The position numbers and the translations under genes were made by a program. The notes under the pieces are model-generated. The model did not search any database. It was given only the letters and a program-made list of their open reading frames with translations, and was not told where the DNA came from. Shown in pieces: positions 936 to 62,859 of a DNA stretch of 64,000 nt (position 1 is its first letter; every line of letters begins with the position of its first letter). This stretch comes from Rhizophagus irregularis (Eukaryota), in the NCBI RefSeq assembly GCF_026210795.1, contig NC_089429.1, positions 4,278,001 through 4,342,000 on the forward strand. The letters are read 5' to 3'.

Positions 936-1858
936 TACATACGAGATACTATTGATTGATTAAAACTAATATCATCAAGTGAAATATCCCTTATTTCTTG
1001 AGCTATCCTATATTGACTTGGAACATCAAGGGTTTTCCTATAATCTAAAATTATTCTAAATTCTTTATCTTTGATTCTTTGCTTGTAAAAACTCGTGTTC
1101 TTTTAGGTTTCCATTGTTCATTTAATTTATTTAAGCTTTATTTGATTTATAAACAATGGATAAAATCGTTAAATTTGTTATTTTAACATGCTTCAAAATA
1201 TTAAAAAAGTTAATTTGTCATTTCATTTCGTCATACCTCCCTAAAATTCCCAAAATATCATTATCTTTTCTCACGATCTATCTTTTGAGCGATTAAATTA
1301 TCAAATTACTTGCATTAATAATAGTTTAACAAAAAAAATTCAATTGAAAAGAAAATTATTATTTTTTAATCGTTCTCTTATTACATATAATATCAGATTC
1401 TTATAAAATAACTGACAGTGATCTGCATCTTTCTCGTTATTATATAATATGCAGTATTTTTTATTGTCTAACACGTTATAGTTAAAAAGATAATTTTAGG
1501 GGTAAATTTTTTGAAGTGTAGAATTCTGAAGAATTCGGAATATTCTTTCGGAAAAACACATGATTATGGTTTAAGCACAAGCCACAGATCAGCCTAAAAG
1601 GGTAATTCTCGGTGGCGAATTTTTTTATCTTCGGAAGTGTAGAATTCCGAAAAATTCAGATTTTTTTTTCGGGAAAATACTTGATTATTTACATATTTCC
1701 GTAATTATTTACGCATTTCCGTAATTAATTACGTATTTCGTAAAATTGGACGAATATTCCGAAATATTTACAGCAATTAAGAAATACGTAATTCCTTATT
1801 ACGAAATTAATTTCGGCTACTATAATCGCCTATGCTAATTAAGTGATAATTTCAAATC

Positions 1859-19695: not shown

Positions 19696-20095
19696 ATTAT
19701 TGCTGTTTTCTAATTACTGTGATCTAGCATTTTTTAATAAAAAAAAAATTTTTTGAGAAAACATGTGAAAATAAAAATTTTATTGCATTTTTAAATAAAG
19801 GAGATATGATTATAAGTTAAAAATTATAATTTTAAGAAAAAATTTTCAATCTTTAAATAAGTTTGCTTATAAATAACTTTTTTAAAAACGATTTATTACA
19901 CAAAATTTAAAAAGTTACTTATAAGTAAACTTATTTAAAAATTGAAAATTTTTTCTTAAAATTATAATTTTTAGCTTATAATCATACCTTCTTTATTTGA
20001 AAATGCAATAAAATTTTTATTTTCACATGTTTTCTCAAAATTTTTTTTTTTTATTAAATAATGCTAGATCACAGTAATTAGAAAACAGCAATAAT
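19696..20095. repeat. ~400 bp near-perfect palindrome (foldback)
   Basis: ATTATTGCTGTTTTCTAATTACTGTGATCTAGCAT.. pairs with ..ATGCTAGATCACAGTAATTAGAAAACAGCAATAAT; arms ~185 bp. Confidence 0.95.
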
Positions 20096-24265: not shown

Positions 24266-24375
24266 AAATTGTCCGATTGGCATCAATCAGATGTGCTGAT
24301 TTGTAATGTCAGTCGATTTTGGTCTGATTTTTAGCTGATTTTCCATATGTCCGATTTTTTTGATTTCGACCAGTG

Positions 24376-25710
24376 GTTACTAATAACCATTTTTTTCTTT
24401 ATTTTTTTTAGATTCGGGTGGACTTCCAAAGAACGAAAACCCAAAGGTAAAGATCTTTACTTTATAATTTTTTTTTTAAATTTTATTAATGAACGGTTAC
24501 TAATAACTGTTCTTTTCTTTTTTTATAGGTTCGGGTGGACTTCCGAAGAACGGAAAAAGGAGAACCTTTAAGATTCGTAAGTAATATATTTACGAATCTT
24601 TTGTTTTAATGTTATGAAACAGTTACTAACCGTTCCTTTGATTTTTTTTTTATAGATTCGGGTGGATTTCTGTCTTTCCAAGGAACGGAAAAAACTAAAG
24701 ATTCAGTATGAATCTTTATTTTTTTATTTTTGTTTATTATTACGAACGGTTTCTAACCGTTCTTTTTCTTTTTTTTTAGGTCAGTGTCTTCCAAAGAATG
24801 GAAAAAACCAAGATTCGTAAGTACAAATCTTAGTTTTATTTTTATTTTTTTTTTATAATATTAACAAATGGTTACTAATAACCGTTCTTATTTTATTTTT
24901 TTAGTTCAGTGGGCTTCCGAAGAACAACGGAAAACCAAGATTCGTAAGTAAGTACGAATCTTGGTTTTTTTTTTATTTTTTATTTTTATTTTTTATTACT
25001 ACGAACGGTTTACTAATAACCGTTCTTTTCTTTTTGTAGGTTTCAGGATCTTTAGAAAAAGTGGAACCAAGATTCGTAAGTACGAGTACGAATCTTGGTT
25101 TATTTTTTATTTTTTTAATATTATTATGAACGGTTATTAATAACCGCTCTTTTTTTTCTTTTTATAGGTTTGGTGTCTTGAGTGGATTCTGATATACAGA
25201 AAAAACCAAAGATTCGTAAGTAGAATCTTGGGTTTTTTGCTTTTTTTTGATATTATGGAACGGTTTAGTTACTAACCGTTCTTTTCTTTTTTTTATAGTT
25301 TTGGTGGGTTTCCAAAAGATCAAGATTCGTAAGTATATACGAATACATGAATAATGTGATTGTGGAATTGTAGATTAGCAATACTTATTTGTAATATGCA
25401 TTTATAAATAAAGTTGTGATTTTATTGCGAATATTAAATAAAATGAGTTGTGGCTGAATATTAGTAAATAAATTTAGTACAAATTTGCAATATAAATTAA
25501 GTAACATTCGGAAAACTATTCACCAAAATTTGCTATCTAAAATTGTTCCGAATGTTAACTGAATTTTAGCCGAAATTTCAAGCCGAACTTTAGGCGAGTG
25601 GCAGCGAATTGCAGCCAAAAAATCTGCTAAAGTTCGACCAGCATTAGACCATAAATCAGCCTAAAATCGGCTGGCTGAATTTTGGCCGATTTGGACTATT
25701 TTGACCAGTA
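24376..25710 (+). mobile_element. Truncated non-autonomous CACTG element with a micro-exon array
   Basis: Inverted near-copy of 30923-~32150; ends ..GGACTATTTTGACCAGTA (terminal G>A). Confidence 0.85.
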
Positions 25711-29247: not shown

Positions 29248-30280
29248 CACAGGTCGAAAGGGCACCATTGTCCAAAATTCAAAAAATGCAAATTCCATAT
29301 TTTCCTGGAAAATGGTGGGAAATTGTGGAAAATGCTGCATTACGCTGAGCAATTTTTGAAATAGTATTGTTACAACATTGTCCGATTTAGCAAATTTTAT
29401 GAAAATTTGGGAAAATGCTACATTATATCTCAAATGTAACATTGCGTAACATTTTGTAACATTGTTATAACATTGTCATTGAAATCAAATTTTGCTTTTT
29501 TTTTGTCAAATGTTCCAATTTTCTTGCAAATGGTGCATTTTTATGAAAATTCCACATTTTACTTCAAATGTAATAACATTTCATAAAATTGTTATAACAT
29601 TGTCAATTAAAATCAAATTTTGCTTTTTTTTTTGTCAAATGTTCTAATTTTCTTGCAAATGGTACATTTTTATGAAAAATGCTGCATTTTATCTCCAATG
29701 TGATGTCATTGTAACAACATTTCATAAAATTGTTATAACATTGTCAATTAAAATCAAATTTTGTCAAATATTCCAATTTTCTGGCAAATGGTGCATTTTT
29801 TATGAAAATTCTATATTTTTTTGTCAAATGTTGCATATTTTCAGTAAATTTTACGTTTTTTTGGTCAAATATTTCATTTTCGTCAGAATGTTAAAATATT
29901 ACAATTTTTTTTTTGGAAAATGCTCAATAATATAGCATTACACTGGAAAATGTAGCATTTCACCAAATTACACTAAAAAGCATCACAATTATCACATTTT
30001 TTGGAAAATTCCACATTACATTAAATTATACTAAAAAATGTAGCATTATACTAAATTATGCGGCATTGCACTAAAAAATACCACAATTACACTAGACAAT
30101 GTAGCATTACACTAAAAGTACCACAATTATTATATTTTTTAGAAAATTTTGTGTTATACTGGAAAATGTAACATTATGCTAGAAAATGCGGAATTGCACT
30201 AAAAAATGCGGAATTGCGCTAAAAAACACAAAAAAATACTACAATTACACTGGATAATGTAGCATTACACGTAATTACAT
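29248..30280 (+). mobile_element. Left end and subterminal repeats of a CACAG-terminal non-autonomous element
   Basis: Starts CACAGGTCGAAAGGGCACCATTG, followed by ~1 kb of degenerate repeats; no right TIR nearby. Confidence 0.55.
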
Positions 30281-30922
30281 TAAAATTGTTAATTTTTATT
30301 TTTATTTATTTGTAAATTACGGACATTATTAAATTTATAATATTCTAAATGCATTATTTAACATTAAATACATTGTTAATACAAACAATGTATCAACACG
30401 ATGTGTTGTGATGTTTAATTTAGTACTAAACCTTACTACTGAAGACCCTCTTTTTGTCACTATAAACAGGTGGAGGGAGCAGCAATGGCTCTCCCCCTAT
30501 AGGTACTTTATGGCCTCTACCTGTTTACAGAGGAGGGGCTTTTCGTAAAGTTGTTAGATAGATATATATATGTGTATATATATAAGTATATATATACATC
30601 TATCGTAATTAAATTAAAAAAAATTATAAAAAAAAAAATTTTTTTCGGGGAAAATGCCCCTATTTATATAAAATACATGTCACGTGTATCACATGACATG
30701 AACTTTGATTAAACTGCACAGCTGCAGTTCATTTTTTAACTAACCTAAAAATGCTAAAAATAAACTATTGCAGCCGCAGCCGCAGCCGCAGTTTTTTTTT
30801 AGAGTTTAAAAAAAAACTAATTTAGTTTATTTCGCTCTTCCCTTCTTCTCACCATTTTCCCGTCACGTTTCTCCTTCCCCCTCTCTCCCCACTTCCCTCT
30901 CTCTCGACCTTCCCCCTCACCA

Positions 30923-33847
30923 CACTGGTCAAAATAGTCCAAATCAGCCAAAATTCAACCAGCCGATTTTAGGCTAATTTATGGTCTAATGCTGGTCGAA
31001 CTTTAGCTGATTTTTTGGCTGCAGTTCGCTGCCACTCGCCTAAAGTTCGGCTTGAAATTTCGGCCAAAATTCAGTTAACATTTGGAACAATTTTAGATAG
31101 CAAATTTTGATAAATAGTTTTCCGAATATTACTTAATTTATGTTGCAAATTTGTACTAAATTTATTTACTAATATTCAGCCACAACTCATTTTATTTAAT
31201 ATTTGCAATAAATCACAACTTTATTTATAAATGCATATTACAAATAAGTATTACTAATCTACAATTCCACAATCACATAATTCATGTATTCGTATATACT
31301 TACGAATCTTGATCTTTTGGAAACCCACCGAAACTATAAAAAAAAAGAAAAGAACGGTTAGTAACCGTTCCATAATATTAAAAAAAAGCAAAAAAACCCA
31401 AGATTCTACTTATGAATCTTTGGTTTTTTTCTGTTTATCAGAACCCATCCGAGACACCAAACCTATAAAAAAGAAAAAAAAAGAGCGGTTATTAATAACC
31501 GTTCATAATAATATTAAAAAAAAATAAAAAATAAACCAAGATTCGTAAGTACGAATCTTGGTTCCACTTTTCTAAAGATCCCGAAACCTACAAAAAGAAA
31601 AGAACGGTTATTAGTAAACTGTTCGTAGTAATAAAAAATAAAAATAAAAAATAAAAAAAGAACCAAGATTCGTACTTACGAATCTTGGTTTTCCGTTGTT
31701 CTTTGAAAGCCCACTGAATCTAAAAAATAAAATAAGAACAGTTTATCAGTAACCGTTCGTTAATATTATAAAAAAAAAATAAAAATAAAACCAAGATTCG
31801 TACTACGAATCTTGGTTTTTTCCATTCTTCAGAAGACACCGACCTAAAAAAAAAGAAAAAGAACGGTTAGAAACTGTTCGTAATAATAAACAAAAATAAA
31901 AAAATAAAGATTCATACCAAATCTTTAGTTTTTTCCGTTCCTTGGAAAGTTGGAATCCACCCGAACCTATAAAAAAAAATCAAAAGAACAGTTAGTAACC
32001 GTTCCATAACATTAAAAAAAAGATTCGTAAGTATATTACTTACGAATCTTTATCTTTGGGTTTTCGTTCGTCGGAAGCCCACCGCACCTAAAAAAATAAA
32101 GAAAAGAACGGTATTAGTAACCGTTCATTAATAAAATTAAAAAAAAAGAAAAAATTATAAAGTAAAGATTCGTACTTACGAATCTTTATTTTTGGGTTTT
32201 CGTTCATCGGAAGCCCACCCGATCCTATAAAAAAAAAGAAAGAATAGTTAGTAAACCATTCGTAATAATAATAAATAAATAAATAAATTAAAGATTCTTA
32301 CGAATCTTTGGGTTTTCGTTCTTCGGAAGTCCACCCGATCCTAAAAAAAAGAAAAGAACGGTTATTAGTAAACCGTTCATATATTAAAAAAAAAACAAAA
32401 AAAATTAAACCAAGATTCGTACTTACTTACGAATCTTGGTTTCTTGGTTTTCCGTTCTTCGGAAGCCCACCAGATCCTAAAAATAGAAAAGAACGGTTAT
32501 TAGTAACCGTTCGTAATATTTTTTTAAAAAAAAAAATCCAAGATTCTTACGAATCTTTGGAATTTTCCCATTCTTCAGAACACGGAAGCCTACCCGAACC
32601 TATAAAAAATAAAAGAACGGTTATTAGTAACCGTTCGTAACATTTTTTTTTAAAAAAAATAAAAAAAAAATCCAAGATTCTTACGAATCTTGGAATTTTC
32701 TAGTTCTTCGGAACACGGAAGCATACCCGAACCTATAAAAAATAAAAGAATGGTTATTAGTAACCGTTCATAATATTTTTTTTAAAAAAAATAAAAAAAA
32801 ATCCAAGATTCTTACGAATCTTGGAATTTTCCCGTTCTTCGGAACATCCGATCCTAAAAAAAGTAAAGAACGGTTATTAATAACCGTTCATAATATTAAA
32901 AATAAACAAAAAAAAAATAACCAAGTTTCAAACTTACAAAACTTGGTTTTTCCATACTTCGAAAGCCCACCCGAATGGCCGAACCTAAAAAAAATAAAAA
33001 AGAACGGTTAGTATTAACCGTTCATATTAAAAATATAAAAAAAAACTCCAAAGAATTCGTACTTACGAATCTTTGGGGTTTCTATACTTCGGAAGCCCAC
33101 CCGAACGGCCGAACCTAAAAAAAAGTAAAAAAAGAACGGTTAGTAACCGTTCATATTAAATTAAATTAAAAAAATAAAAAATAAATAAACCAAGTTTCGT
33201 ACTTACGAAACTTGGTTTTCCATACTTCGGAAGCCCACCCGAACGGCCGAACCTAAAAAAAAAGTAAAAAAAGAACGGTTAGTAATCGTTCATATTAAAT
33301 TAAATTAAAAAAATAAAAAAAAAATAAACCAAGTTTCATACTTACGAAACTTGGTTTTTATATACTTCGGAAGCCCACCCGAACGGCCGAACCTAAAAAA
33401 AAAAGTAAAAAAAGAACGGTTAGTAACCGTTCATATTAAAAAAAAATAAAATAAACTCCAAAGAATTCGTACTTACGAATCTTTGGAGTTTCTGTACTTT
33501 GGAAGCCCACCCAAAAGCCGAACCTATAAAAAAAAAGTAAAAAAAGTGAAAGGGAGAAGGGAAGGAAAGAAAAGGGAAGGAAGGAAAAGGGGAAGAAGGG
33601 GAAACAAGGAAGGGGAACGAAGGAAAGGAAAGGGGAGGGGAAGAAAAAAATTATTAAAAGTTTAAAAAAGGATGTATAAGATGATCCTTTTTTAAACTTT
33701 TAATACGCATAATGCGTAACGCATAACGTTTGATAAATCATATATGTCGAAACTTGGCCGATTTTTAATAATTTACGAAATTTGGCCGAAATGTGTGACA
33801 GATCAGCCGATTTGTCACATGACCGAAAGTTTTGATTTCGACCAGTG
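30923..33847 (-). mobile_element. Complete 2925 bp non-autonomous CACTA-type element
   Basis: TIRs CACTGGTCAAAAT / ATTTCGACCAGTG; 3 bp TSD CCA at 30920-30922 and 33848-33850. Confidence 0.92.
31295..33530 (-). repeat. Micro-exon/hairpin-intron array (~20 units)
   Basis: On the minus strand each unit reads polyT-TAG|exon..CCAAGATTC|GTAAGTACGAATCTTGG..GAACGGTTACTAATAACCGTTC. Confidence 0.85.
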
Positions 33848-33849
33848 CC

Positions 33850-35315
33850 ACCATTCCCATTCCCTGTTGGTATGGCAATTATCGTTACATTTGGAAAGTC
33901 AGGTAAGTTTCGTACCTTACGAAACTTAAATTATTATTTTTTTACTTTTTTTTCTTTATTAAGAAACGTTTTAACGTTTCTTTTACCTTTTTTTGTAGGT
34001 TCCGTTACTCCAAGATTCCAAAATGGCAAAATGTAAGTTTCGTTTTAATGAAACTTATTATATTATATTTTTTTTTTAATTAAGAAACGTTCTCTAACGT
34101 TTCTTATACTTTTTTTTGTAGGTTTTAGTGCTCCAGGATTCTGAAACAGAAAATGTAAGTTTCGTTTTAACGAAACTTATTATATTATATATTTTTTTTA
34201 ATTAAGAAACGTTCTTTAACGTTTCTTTTACTTTTTTTTGTAGGTTCCGGTGTTCCAGGAGCGTAAATTCATTAGACTATAGCTGGAATAAACCAACACT
34301 AGATTATTAGGTCTTTTTAGAAACGTTAAAAGACCTGTGAGAATGCCAAGTTTCAGCATGAATATTCATTAATGACTCTCCTTGATTCCGAAATGGAAAA
34401 ATGTAAGTTTCGTTTTAACGAAACTTATTATATTTTTATTTTTTTTTTAATAAAGAAATGCTCTAACGTTTCTTTTACTTTTTTTTTGTAGGTTCAAGTG
34501 CTCCAGGATTCCGAAACGGAAAAATGTAAGTTTCGTTTAACAAAACTTATCTTTTTTGTTTTTTTAATTAAGAAACGTCCTAACGTTTCTTTTACTTTTC
34601 TTTTCTTGTAGGTCTCCAAGTCGGGTGTCATTGGAAAGTGAAAATGGTAAGTTTCACAATGAAACTTATCATGTTTTATTTTATTTTTTATTATTAGAAA
34701 TGTTTTTTAACGTTTCTCTTTTATTTTTTTTGTAGATTCGAGCGGGATACTTGACTTTGGTAAGTTTTGCAACATAAACGTTGCGAAACTTAATTTTTTT
34801 TTAATTTTTTTTAAGAAACGTTCTAATGTTTCTCTCTTTTTTGTAGATCGATTTTGGGAGTCTGATTGATCTGGAGCTCCCTCCCTCCAGTTTCAGAAGT
34901 CTTGGGTTTGGATAACGTTCAGGTTTCGAAGTATAACTTCGAAACTTCAATTTAAATGGTGAGTTTCATGACAAATATCACGAAACAAGTTTTTTTTGAT
35001 TTTTTTTATTAGGAACTGTTTACTAACGTTCCTTTTCTTTTTTGTAGGTTCAGGATATCTGGGAAGCTAACTTAGGAAACATGAATCGCGTAAAACCATT
35101 GTTAAATAGAAGCCATTACTTTCCATTCAGGTATTGGATATGGCTTGGTAAGTTTCGTACATTTCGTTACGAAACTCCTGTTTTTTTTTTAAGAAACGTT
35201 CTAACTGAACGGTTTTCTTTTTTTGTAGATTATTGTAATGAAATAACAAAAGTAAACAGTTCTTTGGTTCCTTGCTTGGTGAGTTTCGAAGATTAACCTT
35301 CGAAACTTTTTGTTT
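33850..35315 (+). repeat. Second micro-exon/hairpin-intron array (~11 units)
   Basis: GTAAGTTTCG..CGAAACTT, AAGAAACGTT..AACGTTTCTT and TTTTGTAG repeated. Confidence 0.8.
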
Positions 35316-35899
35316 TTTTTATATTTGTTTTTCTTTAACATTATTGTACTTAATTACATATTATAATGATAAATTGTTAATAAAATTAAAATCATAATAA
35401 ATTGTTATAAAATTTGCATAAAATTACGCCAAATTGTTGCTTAATTACATCAGGAACTTTTAATACGCGAAGTACTTCGTAAACTTTATACGATGTAAAA
35501 TTACGTAATATTTTGTAGTAATATTACAGAGTACTTCGTCATATTATGTAGAATTAAATTTTATAATATTTAGATATATTACATAGTGTAGTCTTACATA
35601 ACGTACTAAAGTATTCCATAATTTTATTGCTACGTATATTTTTGAAAATATAATAGATTGTAATTTTATGTAATATATCGAAGCACTCCGTATTTTAATG
35701 TAATGTAAAATTTTGAAATTATTAAGGTATAATCTTACGTAATATTCCAAGTAATTGTCCACTTGTATATCATACCAGATACTAAAATGAGTAATAACCG
35801 TTGGTCAGATGATGATGATGTGCTAGAAAGTCTCAAACTGGAAATAATCTTCATATATACTGCGACAAATCATATTTATATATTTTTTTAATTTCTTCT

Positions 35900-36600
35900 T
35901 TTTTTAATTTCTTCTTTTTCGTAGGTTTCCTTCTAGAACGGCAATTTCGGCTTAATTGATTAGTATGTTTATTTTTTTTAAATTTATTTTTATTTTTAAA
36001 ATTAATAACTTGCTTTTTCTTCTTGTAAGCTTCTGCCTAGAAATGGTCAGTTGGTTAGTATTTATTTATTAAATTAATAACTTCTTGTAGGCTTCTTCCA
36101 AGATGGCAATTTCGGCTGAGTATAGGAACGCTTTTTTGATTTTTTCTTCTCGTAAGGGTACGTTGGCAATTAGTTTAATATAGAACACTTAGTTAATTAG
36201 ATTTTTATTTTTTTTTTAATTTATTTTTATTTTTAAATTAATAACGCCTTTTCTTCTTGTAGGCTTCTTCCAAAATGGCAATTTCAGCTGAATATAGGAA
36301 CGCTTTTTTGATTTATTTTTTTTTCTTCTCGTAAGGTACGTTGGCAATTAGTTTAATATAGAACGCTTAGTATTTTTATTTTTATTTTTTTTTAAAATTT
36401 ATTTTTATTTTTAATTAATAACTTGCTTTTTCTTCTTGTAGGCTCTTCCAAGATGATAAGTTCGACATGTGCCTGCCTCTTAATATAGGAATGGTTGGTT
36501 GGTTAGTATTTATTTATTAAATTAATAACTTCTGAATATAGGAACACTTTTTGATTTTATTTTTTTTTTCTTCTTGTAAGGGTACGTTTTGCAATTAGTA
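35900..36600 (+). repeat. Micro-exon-like repeat array
   Basis: Repeated TTCTTGTAG|GCTTCTTCCAAGATGGCAATTTC units. Confidence 0.6.
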
Positions 36601-38250: not shown

Positions 38251-38265
38251 AGTGAAGAATTATAA

Positions 38266-38561
38266 AGGACCCCGGATATCTTCAAAACAGGTCATAAGTC
38301 ACACTTTTGGCAGATTGGCCCATTTTTCAGGGCTCAAAAAATCGTTTTTTGTAAATATCTCGGCATCCAGTGGTCCAATTTTGAAGAACTTTTTTTTAAA
38401 TTGTAGAGCTAAATGAGGGCTACAAAATAAAAAAAAGTTCATTAAAATTGAATTACTGGATGCTGAGATATTTACAAAAAACGATTTTTTGAGTTTCAGC
38501 AAAAAGGGGTGTTTTTGGCCAAAAGTCCATTATGACCTTTATATTAGATATCCGGGGTCCT
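38266..38561. mobile_element. 296 bp MITE with an 8 bp TSD
   Basis: TIR AGGACCCCGGATATCT / AGATATCCGGGGTCCT; TSD AATTATAA on both sides; long internal inverted repeat. Confidence 0.9.
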
Positions 38562-38974
38562 AATTATAAACCCGATTCTTCATTGATTCTTCATAGATTG
38601 TACTACTATATTATTTCGATGATTATTTCCGATTTTCCACCAATACCTCGTTTAGATTCTGGACAACATCGGTAAACCTATATAATTCATAAATATTGTA
38701 ATTAAATCAGTAAAGAATAGGGTTTTCTGATATTTATCCTATTTCCAAAAGGTCATTCATAATGTGTACTTCTGGCTCTTTTAATTTATTCTGTTCTTCA
38801 GAATTATAATTTCTTAATTTTTAAAAAAAATGCGATGAGAAATTCTGTATCACATAACCACTGTTCAATATTCATTTCGGTATTAATTTTTCCGAATAGA
38901 ATTGTGATACAAATCAATCCGCATCATATCATACAATAGATTTTCTTTGACACATTATCAAATGACATGCAGTC

Positions 38975-47203: not shown

Positions 47204-48854
47204 TTCAATTATATAATAATAATTTAGCAATAAATTTATTTCTGTAAAACCAATTTTTATAATTTTAATAATTAATATATAATCGTATTTAGTAAACTAA
47301 CCAAAATATAATTAATAAAACCGTAAATTTAAAATAAAAATGTATGGCAATCAGAAGATTTTTTATTGGTTGAAAAGTTAACAATCGGTATACTGATATG
47401 TCAAATAGTAAATGGCCTATTGTAACCCGATTGTACTCTATTTAAATATCCAATTGTACTCTATTTGAATATCCCGATTGGAATCCTAATGTACTCTTAT
47501 TGCGCCATTTTTTGGTAGCAATCGGGATTCTCCCGATTGATAATAAACAAAAAAAATAGGGGACCAATAAGATGGAAATCAGGTGACCCGATTTCCATCT
47601 TATTGGTTCCCTATTTGTCATCATTTGACCGGTGTAAAGAAAAAAGAAGTGAAGTTCAAGTTGCGTTTGCAATGGCCTTGGTAGAAGAAATTTTGAACCC
47701 GTAAAAAAACCATTTGAAGATTAGTGAGGTTTTGATGCAATTAAAAATCGAAAAGTACCTTGTATGTTTGTTTATATATATATTTTAAATGTGAAATTAT
47801 ATATTTTTATAAAGATAATAACAATTTTTTTTTTATTTTAGAATAAATTGAGAAATAATTCTTATAGTTTTTCAGAAGAAGAACATAGTGATGAAGAATA
47901 TTTATCAGGTGAAAGAGGTGAAGGCGAAGGAAGCAAAGATTATGAAAGTGATAAGTAATAAGAATAATGATATTCTTTTATTTCCGATGTTTATAGTTTA
48001 AACTCGTTTATTGTAAATTCTTGTTCTCCTTGTAAGAATTGTAGCTTTAAGTAAAATAAAGTAGTTCATTTATTTGTAAGATTAGAGCACCAAGTCGGTA
48101 AATAAATAACAACTGATTTTATTATAATTATATAAAAATTTTTATTATTATTAAAATTTACATAGAAGAAAAATATTAAAGAAAAATCAAAACAAATAAA
48201 AAACGAAAGCCTAAAGATCAAAATCACAAAAAATAATGGTTAGTACTAAGTTTCGGACAAATATCAGAATAATTTAGGCCTGAAACTTAACATCATATAA
48301 TTGATATTTAACTTATAGAATCCTGATATCTGTAAAGAAAATAGTTGTGAAAAAATACTTGTCGAAACTATGAATCACGTGGTTTAAGAAAAATTCTCAA
48401 GAATTTTTCTTAATACTGCTTAATTTAAAGTTTAAAACATTGGTAACGATAATTAAAATTGCTGCAGTATATTTTTGGAGATCGCTGATTCCTAAGTCTA
48501 TTTTCCACTAGCCGAATTTAGACTTCATTAAAAAATATTTTTTTTTCTCTTTCTTATGGTAAAGTTTCGAAGTTGAATTTGAAACGAAATTTTTCAACTT
48601 TGGAAATATTAATGTTTGGGACATTATAAATTATCTCTAATACATGTCTCGCAGTTTCAGCTCCAACGATAATAAAATTATGGATACGAATGCCTTCTAA
48701 CCAAATAAAAGTTATGACCTTTTATTTTCGTTTTTAAAACGGGCAATTAAGACTCCTTTAAAACGTTTCTTTAACGTTTTTCAAACTGGCTCCGAAGACT
48801 TAGATTTTAGAGTCCTAAGTATGTTTTGACAAAAAAGTCTTTAATTTCGGATTC

Positions 48855-50060
48855 CTGGGTAAGTTCCAAACGGTTTGAAACAACTTTTTTTAAAAAAAGT
48901 TAATTTTTCATTTTTTTTAGAGTCGGAATTCAACCTATTTCCTTTATTACTTTTTTATGTAGATTTTGACGGCGATTTCAAGAATAGGTAAGCTGAGGAA
49001 TTTTTCCTTTTTTTCTTTTTTGTTTTAATTCTAAAAACTTATGTTTCTTTTTATCTTAGGTTTCGGGTTAAATTTTAAAGAATCGGTAAGTTTATTCTTC
49101 GTATATTATTTATTTTTCTTTTGTTTCGTATTTATACTAATCTATGACTTTTTTCCTCCTTTAGATCCTGGTGGCAAATGGTTCTTTCATATTTTTCAAT
49201 TTCAGTAATGATTTTTTTTCCTTAATTTACTTTTAAACGAACTGTTACTAATAATTATTTTTTATTTTTTTTAGGCGGTTCTTTCGGTCTCTTTGGAGTT
49301 TAGACTTGGGATCTCGGTAAGTAAAAATTTTTTTTAATGGGTTTTAACTTAACGAACTTTACTAACAGTTCGTTTCCTTTTCTTTTTTTTCTAGCTTTCT
49401 AGCAATAAAGAGAAGAACGGCTCTTTTTAGATACGTATTTCGATATGGTAAACGTAATATATCTTTTTATTTAATTTCTTTTAACGAAATGTTTACTAAC
49501 ATTCCGTTTTTTCTTTTGTAGATGGTCGGGAAAGGAGATTCAAATAAAAAAGTTACTTTAAAATGTTTATATAATTCACAAGAATCTATTAATTTTTTAA
49601 TAAGTGAGGTATAAAATTTATTTAAATATTTAAATACTTTTTTTAATTAGTAAATTCCCAATTTTTTTTTATATTTAGGCTAACAAATATCCAACAGAAT
49701 TACGCATACGTGTATAAGAAAAGAAATACCGATATTTTTAAAATATATTTTTATAGATTTCGGACGCCATTTTGAACCGGCAAGTTATAAAAAAATTTTA
49801 ATTTAAATAGAAGGTGTGTAGATATGTACTAACCTTCCATTTTCTTTTATTTGTAGATTCTGGACTTGTTAGATGCCATCTTGGTCCGGTAAAGAATTCT
49901 TTTTTTGAATAAAAGGCGTATAGGCGTCTCTAAATCTCGTTAGATAATTAGATCGTACTTGGATGGTGAGTTTCAAAATTATACTTTAAGACTTTGTTTT
50001 TTTTTCTTTAAACAAAAATACAATTACTAATATTTATTTATTATATTTTATTTAGCTCTT
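48855..50060 (+). other. Micro-exon/intron series
   Basis: About 10 GTAAG..CTAAC..TAG introns with short non-identical exons. Confidence 0.55.
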
Positions 50061-50707
50061 CAAATCCTTGCAGAATAGTTGTTTGTTGGAATCGAACCAA
50101 CTGGAATAATGTTACAAACCATTAACAACATAATGTATATAAATAGATAGAATAAGAGTAAATTAACGTTAACGAATATAATTTAAATATAATAATGAAA
50201 TAAAAAATATGTAATAAATAATAATAATAAGAAGAAATCAGGTTTCAATGTAGTGAATATACACCTGATATCGGTAGAAATATCAGATTGCCCGTCTGAC
50301 AAGTTTGCATCGATAAGGCCTATTCCTAAAAAGTTAATTAATCCCATTTAATTTTTTTTTAACAAAGTTGAACAGTCTGACAAGATTACATCAATAAGGT
50401 CTATTCCTAAAAAGTTAATTAATCACATTTAATTAAATGATATTTAATTGTATTTTTTTTTTTAAAAAAAAAAAACTTTCTTTCTGAAAGTGAAGTCTGC
50501 CTCCTATACCATTTGCCATCATGCATAGTATATTATAGGAAAGGTGGGCTAGGTGGCCACCTGAAGTTTGTAAATAACTAAATGATAATCTAATTTAGCT
50601 TCGAATTTTGGTTGTCGCATTATTCGTCGAATTTTTTTTTTTCTTTTTTTAAACCGCAGAAAGTCTAAATGGACATCATTATGAATATTTCAAACAATAA
50701 TAATGTA

Positions 50708-51324: not shown

Positions 51325-51510
51325 CCCTGTAAAAAAAGTCGATCCGTTTTTAATATTCCATCCTTTTTTCGCAAAAGGCCCATATTTCCGGAATTAGTAA
51401 TCTTATATCACGGAATTTATCGAATTATTTACATTTTCCGTGAATGGATCCGTGAAAAGCTCATTTTTGCGGAGTTTTTACAGAAATGACGGACAAAATT
51501 TTTTATAGGG
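51325..51510. mobile_element. 186 bp MITE with CCC termini and a 3 bp TSD
   Basis: CCCTGTAAAAAA..TCCGT / ACGGA..TTTTTTATAGGG; TSD CAT on both sides. Confidence 0.8.
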
Positions 51511-51529
51511 CATCATCCAAAAGTTCGAC

Positions 51530-52180
51530 AACCTAAAAAAATAAAACAAAGAAAGAAACATTAATATGTTTCTTTAAAATTTTAAGAAATACTTCCCCTC
51601 TCCCTCTAACTTACATTCAAAGCCAAGTTCATCTTACGTTTCTTTAATATTGAAACAACACATCTTTACCTAAAAATAAAAGAAAAATGGCGTTAATATT
51701 TCCCATTATACAACCGCACATCACCCAAATAACACCTACCCGCATACTCAAGAGAAAGTGGAAATCTAAAAATAAAAGCAGAATGGAGTTAGTGTTGTTT
51801 CATAACTACGCAACCATACACCCACCCAAACACCTACCCGCATATTCCACTTCAAGAGAAAGCCGGAAATCTAAAAAATAAAAAAGAAATGTCGTTAATA
51901 TTGTTTTATAACGCCATTTCATATTATACACTCACCCAAACTTCACTTACCGCATATTCCACTTCAAGAGAAAGCCGGAATCTAAAAAAATAAAAAAAGA
52001 GTTCGTTAGTATTATTTTATAATGCCATTTTATCATCCAAACTTAACTTACCGCATGCTTCACTCTAAGGAAGAACCAAAAGAACAAACTCGGCTTACTT
52101 AAATTTGCCGAAACTCATCCAGAAGGCCATCCTTAATTCGTTCCAACGGAATCCACATTCAGAAGAACGCCCCTAAAGAA
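51530..52180 (-). other. Micro-exon/intron array on the minus strand
   Basis: Repeated CTAAAAATAAAA..GTTAG/GTTAA..CTTACC/CCTACC, with exons resembling (rc) CGCATATTCCACTTCAAGAGAAAGCCGGAA. Confidence 0.6.
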
Positions 52181-60099: not shown

Positions 60100-61125
60100 A
60101 TTTTTATTTTTTTTTCAGTTCTCTTTTTTTTAGGTGTTCAGTGATCTCTTTCTTCAAGACGACGGGTAAGTTTATTTATTTGTTTTGTATTATTTTGATT
60201 TGTTTTATATTAATCTATTTCTTTCTTTTTCTTATGATTAGGTTGGTTTGTTCAAGACGGTCTATAAAGAGGACCATTCAAGAAAAATTAGTAGATATAG
60301 AAGTTACTTTGAAATAGTTGCATAAATCACAAAATATGTAAGTTATCGTTTCAAAAATTAAAAAAAAGATTTTAACTAATGTTTTTTTCTCTTCTACTAG
60401 TCACCCACGTTATCGATAGCATTCAATTATACGTTGATAAGGATTCCTTCTCCCACTGGTATTTTTAACACAGGAAGTCGACTGCAGAGAAGAATATAAG
60501 TGGACGACATTATGGTGGCGTGAAATGATATGAAGATAACGTAGCTGGTGAAACAAATAAACTGATCTGCGTAAGATTGGATTTTATTTTTAGTTTTAAA
60601 AAAAACGTTTGTAGGAAAAAGTTTCTGTATTTGGGATGATTGGTTGAAATGAGAGGATCGATTGGGAAATGAGTGAGTTTCGAAAGTTTCTTCTTTTCTA
60701 ACTTATATATTAAAAACTTTACTTTTTTTTATTCATTTGTAGAACTGAGTTTTATTCCGGATAATAAGAATGGGTAAATTTCGTTACGAACCTTTTTTTT
60801 TCTTTCTTATATAATAGAATATTTTACTAATGTCTCTTTTTTTATTCTTTTGTAGGATCGGATACTTTTTATTCTAAACGATTGTGAATGGGTATTGGGT
60901 AAGTTTCGTAATGTTCATTACGAAACCTTTTATATATATATATATATATAATAGAACATTTACTAATGTCTCTTTTTTTATTTTTTTGTAGAATCGGATA
61001 TTTTTTATTTTGAGTGATTGAGAATGGGTAAGTTTCATTACGGAACGTGTTTTTTTTCTTTTTATAGTATAACTGATAGAAGCATTTTACTAATGTTATT
61101 CTTTATTCTTTGGTAGGATCAGGTT
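60100..61125 (+). other. Micro-exon/intron array
   Basis: GAATGG|GTAAGTTTC..ACGAAAC..TACTAATGTC..TTTGTAG repeated in the 3' half. Confidence 0.6.
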
Positions 61126-61759
61126 TCATTGTAAAGCAATATATACGTACTTCTTGTTAACATGATGGTTTCTTATTTTTATTTATTTATTTGTTTTTTG
61201 TATGAATGACCTTGAAATGGACTTTGGAGGTAAATAAATCTGAGTGGTTCTTATTTGCATGAAGGCGGTTTTTTAAATTCTTGGACAACTTAAGGTCTTT
61301 CTTTAATGATAGAATTGTGGGTTTATGTTGGGTTAAGAAATACTTTATCAAGAATCGAATAATGATTAATGAAAACAATGTTTTGGGAAGCGTGTTATTT
61401 AATTAATGTCGCATAACTTGCTTAATCTGGTTATTGATATAATTTAATTTTTATTCTCGCCTAATAATTGCTTATTCTAACATAAATTTTCAACGTCAAG
61501 AAAATAAAAGTAAATTCAAATTTTATTTAACATTATGTTGTTTATTTTATTTTACTTTTATTAAAGAAAGGTGGTTTAGAATATGAATACATATTAATGT
61601 GCAATGGAATACTAACACAAACACACTCATATTAAACAATACCATCTTTTACCTTTAGAGAAAAAATGAAATACTTTTATTAATATCATATTTGCTCAGC
61701 GAAGATTTATAAATAGTAACGTGACTAGTAATCACATGTTACGAAAATTAACACACATG

Positions 61760-62110
61760 ATTGGTTGTTTATTATTTTTTTTCCGTTTTAAGGTTTTTGT
61801 TGACGTTTTATATCTTTTTCTTTGTAGGACATTTTTTTCAATACTTTGGCCTGGAAAGTAAAAATCCAGACTCAAGTAAGTTTTATTTTATTTATTGGTT
61901 TTTACTAACTTCGTCCTTATTAGGTTCTTCATTCTTTGGCTTGAAGTAGAAATCCAGACTCAAGTAAGTTTTAATTTTTATGAATTTTTATTTATTTTAT
62001 TTTTTTTATTTTTATTTTCGTTTCTTTAATAATTTTATTCTTTTTTTTTCAGTTCTTTAATTTGAAGAAGTAAAAACCAGATTTGAGTAAGTTTTTGCTT
62101 TTACTTTTAT
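61760..62110 (+). other. Short micro-exon/intron array
   Basis: Three exons ending GAAGTA.AAATCCAGACTCAA|GTAAGTTTT. Confidence 0.6.
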
Positions 62111-62859
62111 TTTTATTTTTATCTTTCATAAATTTTTTTATTCACGTTATTTTTAATTTTTTTGGTCTCAGATAACAAAATTGATCATTTCATATTGGTA
62201 ATTCTTAACCTTCCTTAGTGATTAAGGTCTGCTTTTGCTATAGGGGGCGAAGGCTATATATCTTTTCTGAATTTACAAGCTATTGCATATTTACTAGTAA
62301 TATGATAAAAAAAAGTACAATTTCTTTATTATAGTTTTGTGTTTTAACATTAATTATTATATAATTTAGGTATGTACAATAATCTATTAGTATTATTAAA
62401 AATTACAAAAAAATTATATATTATGAAATGTAAGTTTTTTAAATTGCGCCTAATAAAATTACAAAAAACCAAAATAAAATTACAATAAGTTATGTATTAT
62501 AAGGTTACGAAATGTAAAATTTGTAGAGAATTATGCCTAATAAAATTACAAAAAATTATGCATTATAAGATTACGAAATGTAAAATAATTAAAGACTTAC
62601 GCCCTTATAATTTTACGAAAATACTAAAGAATGTAAATATTCAAAATACTACACCTAATAAGATTACAAAATATTACATTTTGCAAGATTACACAATATT
62701 ACAATTTGCAAGATTACATTTTGCAAATCTATATAAAATTACATTTTATAAGATTACAAAAATATTATAATATGTAAACCTTCGTGGGCCTTGTAAGTTT
62801 ATATAAATCTACGATATAAAGGAATTTTAGAAGTTTACGCCATATTTAATTTACTGATG

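What the first reader, a model, noticed from the sequence alone, without database searches (positions are those of the whole stretch)
33850..35315. A different sequence family with the same two-hairpin intron design and variable but paired stems
Seen: donors are followed by hairpins whose inner sequence differs in each unit yet stays paired: AAGTTTCGTA-cct-TACGAAACTT, AAGTTTCGTT-tt-AACGAAACTT, AAGTTTTGCAAC-ataaac-GTTGCGAAACTT, AGTTTCGAAG-attaac-CTTCGAAACT. The branch point lies in AAGAAACGTT-(ct)-AACGTTTCTT. The exons are unrelated to those of the 31.3-33.5 kb array. Inference: structure rather than sequence is being maintained, suggesting a general class of structured-intron arrays.
Basis: partly seen in the sequence, partly recalled or inferred. 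Interest (0 to 1): 0.78.

Follow-up and report, generated by a model that had tools for sequence, protein, structure and literature searches.

The report
Transposon-borne arrays of hairpin introns
Nine short introns, each folding one hairpin over its start and one over its branch point, are spliced out of a non-coding RNA that likely rides on cut-and-paste transposons of a mycorrhizal fungus; the dense splicing may shield these elements from silencing, while the hairpins are probably inherited and kept perfect by DNA copying rather than by RNA-level selection.

Summary
33903-35228 holds nine GT-AG introns (81-96 nt) between tiny non-coding exons, plus a last donor hairpin. The hairpins beat shuffles (8 of 9 introns) and ten introns of transposon protein genes. 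Close relatives are spliced in public RNA data. The class is broad: 19 sequence clusters in soil metagenomes, often next to inward-facing CACTA-like ends; two relatives sit in complete elements with 3-bp target duplications. For this array only one possible end was found. The inference needs correcting. The core stems are conserved in sequence; only the loop-side extensions vary. Arrays 1 and 2 align unit for unit with the donor shifted about 11 nt, so common descent is likelier than a shared design. G-U pairs are not favoured over A-C mismatches (32 vs 24), and the variable stems are almost purely Watson-Crick, which fits template switching on DNA. Best reading: a tandemly grown, spliced non-coding cargo of non-autonomous CMC transposons in a Rhizophagus-like fungus, possibly shielding them from RNA silencing (untested). 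Ten paper searches found no description.

The parts
29248..29259 (+). CACTA-like left terminus (CACAGGTCGAAA) facing the array; candidate left end of the host element, matching right end not shown
   Evidence: only candidate right end (63886) has a different 3-bp flank
30830..30922 (+). CT-rich tract, likely promoter or 5' part of exon 1 of array 2, cut off from it by element A
   Evidence: one contig of run X4 joins 30813-30923 to 33866-33976 (empty site)
30923..33847 (-). Element A: 2.9 kb non-autonomous CACTA-like element (ends CACTGGTC, target duplication CCA) carrying array 1, the related hairpin-intron array
   Evidence: second partial copy at 24374-25709, 90% identical
33848..33902 (+). 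3' part of exon 1 of array 2
33903..33998 (+). intron 1, donor hairpin 11 bp, branch hairpin 9 bp
34033..34121 (+). intron 2 (exon 2 = 33999-34032, exon 3 = 34122-34154)
   Evidence: 2 polyA reads join exon 2 to exon 3
34155..34243 (+). intron 3
34244..34402 (+). exon 4: one exon unit split by about 125 nt of other repeat DNA
   Evidence: loose read ends at 34283 and 34382 in all four runs
34403..34491 (+). intron 4 (exon 5 = 34492-34525)
34526..34611 (+). intron 5 (exon 6 = 34612-34646)
34647..34735 (+). intron 6 (exon 7 = 34736-34759)
   Evidence: 8 reads in four runs go exon 6 - exon 7 - exon 8
34760..34846 (+). intron 7, longest donor hairpin (exon 8 = 34847-34958)
34959..35047 (+). intron 8, weakest fold (exon 9 = 35048-35147)
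   Evidence: skipped in X9 contig 28
35148..35228 (+). intron 9 (exon 10 = 35229-35278)
35279..35308 (+). terminal donor hairpin with no acceptor after it
   Evidence: X9 contig 30 reads through it to 35447

Best explanation
The region is a spliced, non-coding micro-exon array that likely travels as internal cargo of non-autonomous CMC (CACTA/EnSpm-type) DNA transposons, and its dense, efficient splicing would shield the element's transcript from RNA silencing while the two hairpins are probably inherited and kept perfect by template switching on DNA. Shown: intron anatomy, hairpins, no reading frame, spliced close relatives, the same unit in 19 sequence clusters, complete elements with 3-bp duplications around two relatives (element A, L013). 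Inferred: one ancestral exon-intron unit of about 120 nt grew by tandem duplication; arrays 1 and 2 descend from it, array 2 having moved its donor about 11 nt upstream so that the whole stem became intronic; transcription starts in the CT-rich tract. Hypothesis only: the benefit to the element (introns as a barrier to nuclear RNAi) and the template-switch origin of the perfect stems.
For: Transposon context: element A has CACTGGTC ends and a CCA duplication and an empty site exists; L013 holds a 2.16 kb element with AAT duplication around six such introns; a CACTA-like end is present in 15 of 48 loci and faces the array in 13 of 15, 7 of 8 clusters; Tnp2 and Plavaka transposases surround the array, with named hits from Rhizophagus irregularis up to 91% identical over 56% of the query. 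Tandem growth: period 122, 5.4 copies. Non-coding: stops in all frames, longest ATG ORF 51 aa; 70 exons split 25/21/24 over length mod 3; 9 of 11 length differences between homologous exons are not multiples of 3. Splicing: 8 reads exon 6-7-8 and 2 reads exon 2-3; X9 contig 28 (390 nt, depth 123) skips intron 8 and spans about 900 genomic bases, close to the 375 nt predicted if introns 4-9 are removed, against depth 10 for a contig holding intron 9. Common descent: alignment A1, shared stem. DNA-level stems: no G-U excess; inner stems 88 Watson-Crick vs 5 G-U; arms of array 1 co-vary by whole indels. [quoted passage not shown]
Against: Both ends of the element around array 2 itself were not found. 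In L033/L043 the nearest end faces away, and 33 of 48 loci show no such end (short contigs); such ends are common in this genome, so nearness alone is weak. Most copies are probably dead, so neutral decay alone gives G-U = A-C and could hide selection on active masters. Stop-free runs across spliced junctions were longer than block shuffles in 10 of 45 loci, though the translations are incoherent. The RNA reads are 90-99% alike, so they come from alleles or paralogues, the libraries look unstranded, X9 is RNA only by guess, and many polyA reads lie on intron sequence. Nothing here tests the anti-silencing benefit, and it does not explain why both hairpins sit exactly on the splice signals.
Confidence: 0.5

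Rival explanations
1. RNA-level gate: the hairpins are selected to mask the donor and the branch A, slowing spliceosome assembly so that the RNA is held back, feeds a SCANR-like small-RNA pathway, or leaves stable two-hairpin intron RNAs.
For: Both hairpins cover the signals in nearly every unit; in 103 introns not matched by the scan pattern the branch region folds to -6 kcal/mol or lower in 59% vs 2.3% of shuffles; stems differ in concert between arrays 1 and 2; donor stems differ at 5 of 165 sites between the two element-A copies vs 62 of 666 elsewhere in the array (biased by defining stems on one copy, and the 3' tail is as low, 14 of 367). Concealed branch sites regulate splicing in animals (PMC11162794, abstract); SCANR targets slowly spliced transposon RNAs (PMC7175516, passages).
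Against: No G-U excess over A-C (32 vs 24; shared variants 9 vs 24, itself skewed by the fixed branch motif); compensatory cells are rare; the fully spliced form outweighs an intron-holding contig about 12-fold in X9; branch stems differ at 11 of 110 sites between the element-A copies, like background; no Rfam match.
Confidence: 0.22
2. Neutral passenger: an ordinary intron in a transposon happened to carry palindromes, was amplified by slippage and unequal crossing-over, and hitchhikes; neither splicing nor hairpins help the element.
For: Symmetric decay of stems; the window is full of perfect palindromes and foldbacks; arrays with weak or no hairpins exist in the same window (35.85-36.6, 48.5-50.1, 51.5-52.1 kb); acceptor-only runs occur in relatives (30 acceptors vs 4 donors in L003).
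Against: Splice signals and core arms persist across 19 clusters while exons diverge almost beyond alignment; signals are strictly one-stranded (30 vs 0 acceptors in L003); spliced products are present.
Confidence: 0.14
3. DNA docking sites: the CpG-bearing palindromes are binding sites for an element-encoded protein (TnpA-like or anti-silencing factor), and splicing is a side effect.
For: Strand-symmetric, Watson-Crick-only stems and sequence-conserved arms; a Tet/JBP oxygenase gene lies beside the L037 array; an earlier unchecked note reached this reading for another fungal element. TnpA and VANC binding to repeats is recalled, not from a call.
Against: The spacer between arms varies from about 3 to over 20 nt, unlike a dimer site; the arms keep a fixed register to donor and branch point on one strand.
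Confidence: 0.11
4. Introner: the introns are themselves mobile and insert into genes.
For: Short, similar, structured introns in many copies, as for fungal proliferating introns (PMC8469720, abstract).
Against: Copies are tandem with repeated exons; intron ends do not pair with each other; no scan hit lay inside a recognisable protein gene.
Confidence: 0.03

Closest known systems
Non-autonomous CMC (CACTA/EnSpm, Plavaka) DNA transposons; CMC is among the recently active and expressed superfamilies in Rhizophagus irregularis (bioRxiv 10.1101/2021.03.30.436303, passages)
   Same: CAC(T/A)GGTC-type ends, 3-bp target duplication, repeat-rich subterminal DNA, Tnp2 partners nearby
   Different: The interior is a non-coding array of up to about 17 micro-exons and hairpin introns, not a deleted transposase gene; no such cargo appeared in the passages read
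Introner-like elements and sister stwintrons of fungi (PMC8469720, abstract)
   Same: Many similar, structured spliceosomal introns
   Different: Two local hairpins instead of end-to-end symmetry; tandem with repeated exons inside a transposon instead of dispersed in genes
Stem-loops with concealed branch sites (PMC11162794, abstract)
   Same: Branch A paired inside a stem
   Different: Here in every intron of a non-coding array, together with a donor hairpin, with no sign of wobble-tolerant selection
Non-coding snoRNA host genes such as GAS5 (recalled; title seen in listing)
   Same: Short, poorly conserved non-coding exons between introns with conserved cores
   Different: No snoRNA or other Rfam family; the conserved cores are the splice-signal hairpins themselves
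Transposon-derived lncRNAs of Blumeria hordei (PMC10648671, abstract)
   Same: Fungal lncRNAs from transposon DNA
   Different: Those are largely antisense to coding elements; this is a dedicated tandem exon-intron array

Membership tests
U2-type spliceosomal intron | GT..AG ends, YTAAY branch motif, pyrimidine tract on one strand | tested here: met
   9 of 9 introns
U2-type spliceosomal intron | removed in RNA at the predicted borders | tested here: met
U2-type spliceosomal intron | lariat at the predicted branch A | not testable with these tools
   no lariat reads available
Non-autonomous CMC/CACTA element | terminal inverted repeats starting CACT(A/G) (definition recalled) | tested here: inconclusive
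   met for element A and L013; for array 2 only a left end at 29248, no matching right end
Non-autonomous CMC/CACTA element | 2-3 bp target-site duplication and an empty site (definition recalled) | tested here: inconclusive
   CCA and empty site for element A, AAT for L013; not found for array 2
Non-autonomous CMC/CACTA element | transposase partner with the same ends | tested here: met
   the Tnp2 (PF02992, weak hit) gene at 20.3-23.6 kb is followed by an end sharing 18 bases with element A's; PF02992 marks CMC (PMC5751038, passage)
Introner / introner-like element | dispersed insertions at new positions in host genes | tested here: not met
   tandem with repeated exons; no hit inside a protein gene among 50 loci; host genes genome-wide not examined
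Introner / introner-like element | intron ends pair with each other | tested here: not met
   two local hairpins
snoRNA or mirtron host gene | intron holds a known small RNA or folds as one long hairpin | tested here: not met
   no Rfam match at gathering score in the window or in arrays of 20 of 50 loci; only chance E-value hits; stems 5-13 bp
Micro-exon protein gene | open frame through the spliced exons | tested here: not met
   weak contrary signal

The most novel reading that the evidence does not exclude
CMC transposons of arbuscular mycorrhizal fungi carry a dedicated anti-silencing cassette: a heavily spliced non-coding RNA built from tandem introns whose donor and branch point are each gated by a hairpin, in some subfamilies joined by acceptor-only runs and a conserved tRNA-like module. 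It would be a transposon counter-defence made of splice signals rather than protein, and a natural library of hairpin-gated introns.
Probability: 0.25. Interest if true: 0.78.

Novelty: new variant of a known kind. Interest (0 to 1): 0.52.

Why it matters
A quarter of the R. irregularis genome is unclassified repeat (bioRxiv 10.1101/2021.03.30.436303, passage); this gives one widespread part of it an anatomy, and warns that such arrays will be annotated as spurious multi-exon genes. If the splicing shields the element, it makes the idea that introns mark transcripts as self testable with existing methylome and small-RNA data, by comparing elements with and without arrays. The hundreds of natural variants with masked donors and branch points that are still spliced also bear on how U1 and U2 enter structured sites.

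Tried and rejected
No whole genome was held, so genome-wide counts and host housekeeping introns are missing; the control set is 10 transposon-gene introns only. No RNA holder was listed on record. Rfam: nothing at gathering score in the window, one tRNA outside the array in 20 of 50 loci, chance hits at E<1. ARAGORN: none in the window, 2 of 48 loci. Hammerhead core: 0 in 29-37.5 kb and 0 in 50 loci. Spliced array 2 is not more structured than shuffles (-158.6 vs -152.6 +/- 7.5). Protein coding rejected. The joints table was cut (218 rows hidden), so absence of the joined form from the DNA-type run X15 is not shown. Rows dropped before counts: L044 (bacterial chance hit) always, L020 (chimeric-looking), L038 (overlaps L037), further loci without a called acceptor; near-identical introns collapsed 256 to 125; the intron caller has false positives. 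Two control introns were mis-set and redone. Contig depths were not used as copy numbers. Earlier findings by place and by sequence: nothing. Paper searches gave no description of such arrays; PMC13465315, PMC11952901 and PMC7082362 (passages) had nothing on them. No supplement was read; curated repeat libraries there may already hold these elements as consensus sequences.

Full report
Setting. The window is AT-rich eukaryotic DNA full of transposons: Pfam finds Tnp2 (PF02992) three times, Plavaka and a Tc3 transposase among 16 ORFs tested. The named hits of one Tnp2 ORF are from Rhizophagus irregularis, up to 91% identical over 56% of the query, so the source is likely an arbuscular mycorrhizal fungus. 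No whole genome was held.

Observation. 33903-35228 holds nine GT..TAG introns of 81-96 nt between exons of 34, 33, 159, 34, 35, 24, 112 and 100 nt, then a 50-nt exon and a last donor hairpin at 35279 with no acceptor. Each intron reads donor hairpin, U-rich linker, branch hairpin, pyrimidine tract. The branch A lies in the 3' arm of the second stem, 21-29 nt from the acceptor. Eight of nine introns fold better than all but at most 2 of 300 shuffles. Ten introns from transposon protein genes of the window lack the hairpins (medians -3.1 and -2.5 vs -11.0 and -8.2 kcal/mol). All four quoted donor stems are verbatim; the branch stem has loops tt, ctct, cttt rather than ct.

Non-coding but spliced. 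The joined exons have stops in all frames; the longest ATG frame is 51 codons. In three polyA runs and one run that is RNA by guess (at most 3 samples, 2 studies), 166-271 reads per run were laid, mostly 90-99% alike; 8 reads pass from exon 6 through an exon-7 variant into exon 8 and 2 join exons 2 and 3; many others lie on intron sequence, and the libraries look unstranded. In run X9 (RNA by guess; its cover is low over element A's termini where run X15 is high), contig 28 of 390 nt and depth 123 joins exon 8 to exon 9 and reaches back to 34383; removing introns 4-9 predicts 375 nt. A contig holding intron 9 has depth 10. So the hairpins do not block splicing, at least in close relatives.

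Context. Array 1 lies in element A (30923-33847): ends CACTGGTC, duplication CCA. One X4 contig joins 30813-30923 to 33866-33976, an empty site, so element A split array 2 from a CT-rich tract that is likely its promoter. A scan for both hairpins gave 52 stretches in 50 loci of soil metagenomes; without one bacterial chance hit and one chimeric-looking contig, 48 loci form 19 clusters. Of 256 called introns 125 are non-redundant; among the 103 not matched by the pattern the branch region folds to -6 or lower in 59% (shuffles 2.3%) and the donor region in 60% (shuffles 23%); 70 exons have median 33 nt and no frame preference. A CACTA-like end occurs in 15 of 48 loci and faces the array in 13 of 15, 7 of 8 clusters. 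L013 has a complete 2.16 kb element with an AAT duplication: end, CT-rich tract, acceptor-only repeats, six hairpin introns, AT-rich tail, end. For array 2 a left end at 29248 faces it, but no matching right end was found, so its own membership is inferred.

What keeps the stems. The core arms are conserved in sequence: within two mismatches in 99 and 88 of 133 introns, 705 of 792 branch-stem pairs unchanged, 3 and 4 compensatory cells (the scan pattern builds part of this in). What varies is the loop-side extension, and it is paired: 88 Watson-Crick of 134 positions vs 45 expected, with only 5 G-U and 8 A-C. I aligned each arm to its consensus independently and compared G-U pairs (tolerated in the sense RNA) with A-C mismatches (their mirror image). 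Where neither base is a splice signal the counts are 32 and 24 (p=0.35); over all pairs 54 and 63; among variants shared by several loci 9 and 24 (skewed by the fixed branch motif). There is no sign of RNA-level tolerance. Dead copies decaying neutrally would give the same result, so selection on active masters is not excluded. Perfect stems that change by whole indels on both arms (array 1) fit template switching, which can create and keep hairpins in one step (PMC8794818, passages).

Arrays 1 and 2. They align over the whole unit with the donor stems in register. Some array-1 units have the same AAGTTTC..GAAACTT stem, with the donor GT in the loop; array 2 has it just before the stem. Two of six array-2 exons match array-1 exons at uncorrected P 0.012 and 0.027, one shares a 10-mer (P 0.11), three do not match. 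Common descent with a donor shift is likelier than two families meeting on one design, though low complexity inflates the likeness.

Mechanism. Shown: anatomy, hairpins, non-coding state, splicing of relatives, breadth, complete elements around two relatives. Inferred: tandem growth of one unit (period 122) inside CMC elements. Hypothesis: the element gains from the act of splicing, since introns can be a barrier to nuclear RNAi (PMC5554785, passages). The opposite effect, slow splicing feeding small RNAs as in Cryptococcus SCANR (seen only as described in PMC7175516, passages), is the main rival; the abundant fully spliced contig and the symmetric decay speak against it. Neutral hitchhiking and DNA docking sites remain. 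Against my reading: stop-free runs exceeded shuffles in 10 of 45 loci, but the translations are incoherent and 9 of 11 exon length differences break frame.

Comparison and novelty. Closest are non-autonomous CMC elements, active and expressed in R. irregularis (bioRxiv 10.1101/2021.03.30.436303, passages; PMC5751038, passages), fungal proliferating introns (PMC8469720, abstract), concealed branch sites (PMC11162794, abstract) and transposon lncRNAs (PMC10648671, abstract). Introner, snoRNA-host and micro-exon protein readings fail their tests. Ten searches found no description; subscription papers and supplements were not seen. CACTA end and duplication rules, TnpA and VANC are recalled. Verdict: real, broad, apparently undescribed cargo of a known transposon kind; function open; interest 0.52.

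Noticed in passing
L013 about 1535-1592 (- strand); 20 places in 14 loci (L002, L003, L005, L007, L010, L012, L013, L015, L017, L022, L023, L024, L040, L045, L047 minus overlaps): A conserved module of about 57 nt inside the arrays folds like a shortened tRNA (acceptor-like stem stacked on a T-stem with a TTCRATT loop). Not called by ARAGORN or Rfam, absent from the window. Could be an RNase P site or a B-box barrier; both are guesses from recall.
   Followed up: partly
L003, L012, L013, L015, L002, L010: Long runs of acceptor-only units (poly-T, TAG, then 25-35 nt) on the same strand as the hairpin introns: 30 acceptors, 0 on the other strand and 4 donors in L003.
   Followed up: partly
window 24375-25345 (+), 35850-36600 (+), 48500-50100 (+), 51500-52100 (-), 60100-62200 (+): Five more micro-exon arrays: a copy of array 1, one with partial hairpins at 60.7-61.1 kb, and three with weak or no hairpins.
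   Followed up: partly
window 34283-34382: A piece inside exon 4 is shared with another expressed repeat: 30-55 reads per run have loose ends at both borders; it holds a CACTA-like end at 34339.
   Followed up: no
window 31280-33545: Contigs of run X9 with depth 1400-2400 show joints that read like spliced array-1 exons, hinting that this family is highly expressed.
   Followed up: no
L037 711-2189 (-): A Tet/JBP oxygenase gene (PF12851) lies directly downstream of two tandem arrays.
   Followed up: no
L015 3120-3190 and L039 1711-1781: A tRNA with anticodon AAA is inserted antisense into the array.
   Followed up: no
window 33652-33705, 30557-30604, 19696-20095, 38260-38569, 47554-47616: Perfect or near-perfect palindromes: one just upstream of each CT-rich tract, and larger foldbacks elsewhere.
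   Followed up: no
L043 2000-3060 (+) and 4090-6050 (-): Two diverged copies of an array face each other across a foldback element.
   Followed up: no
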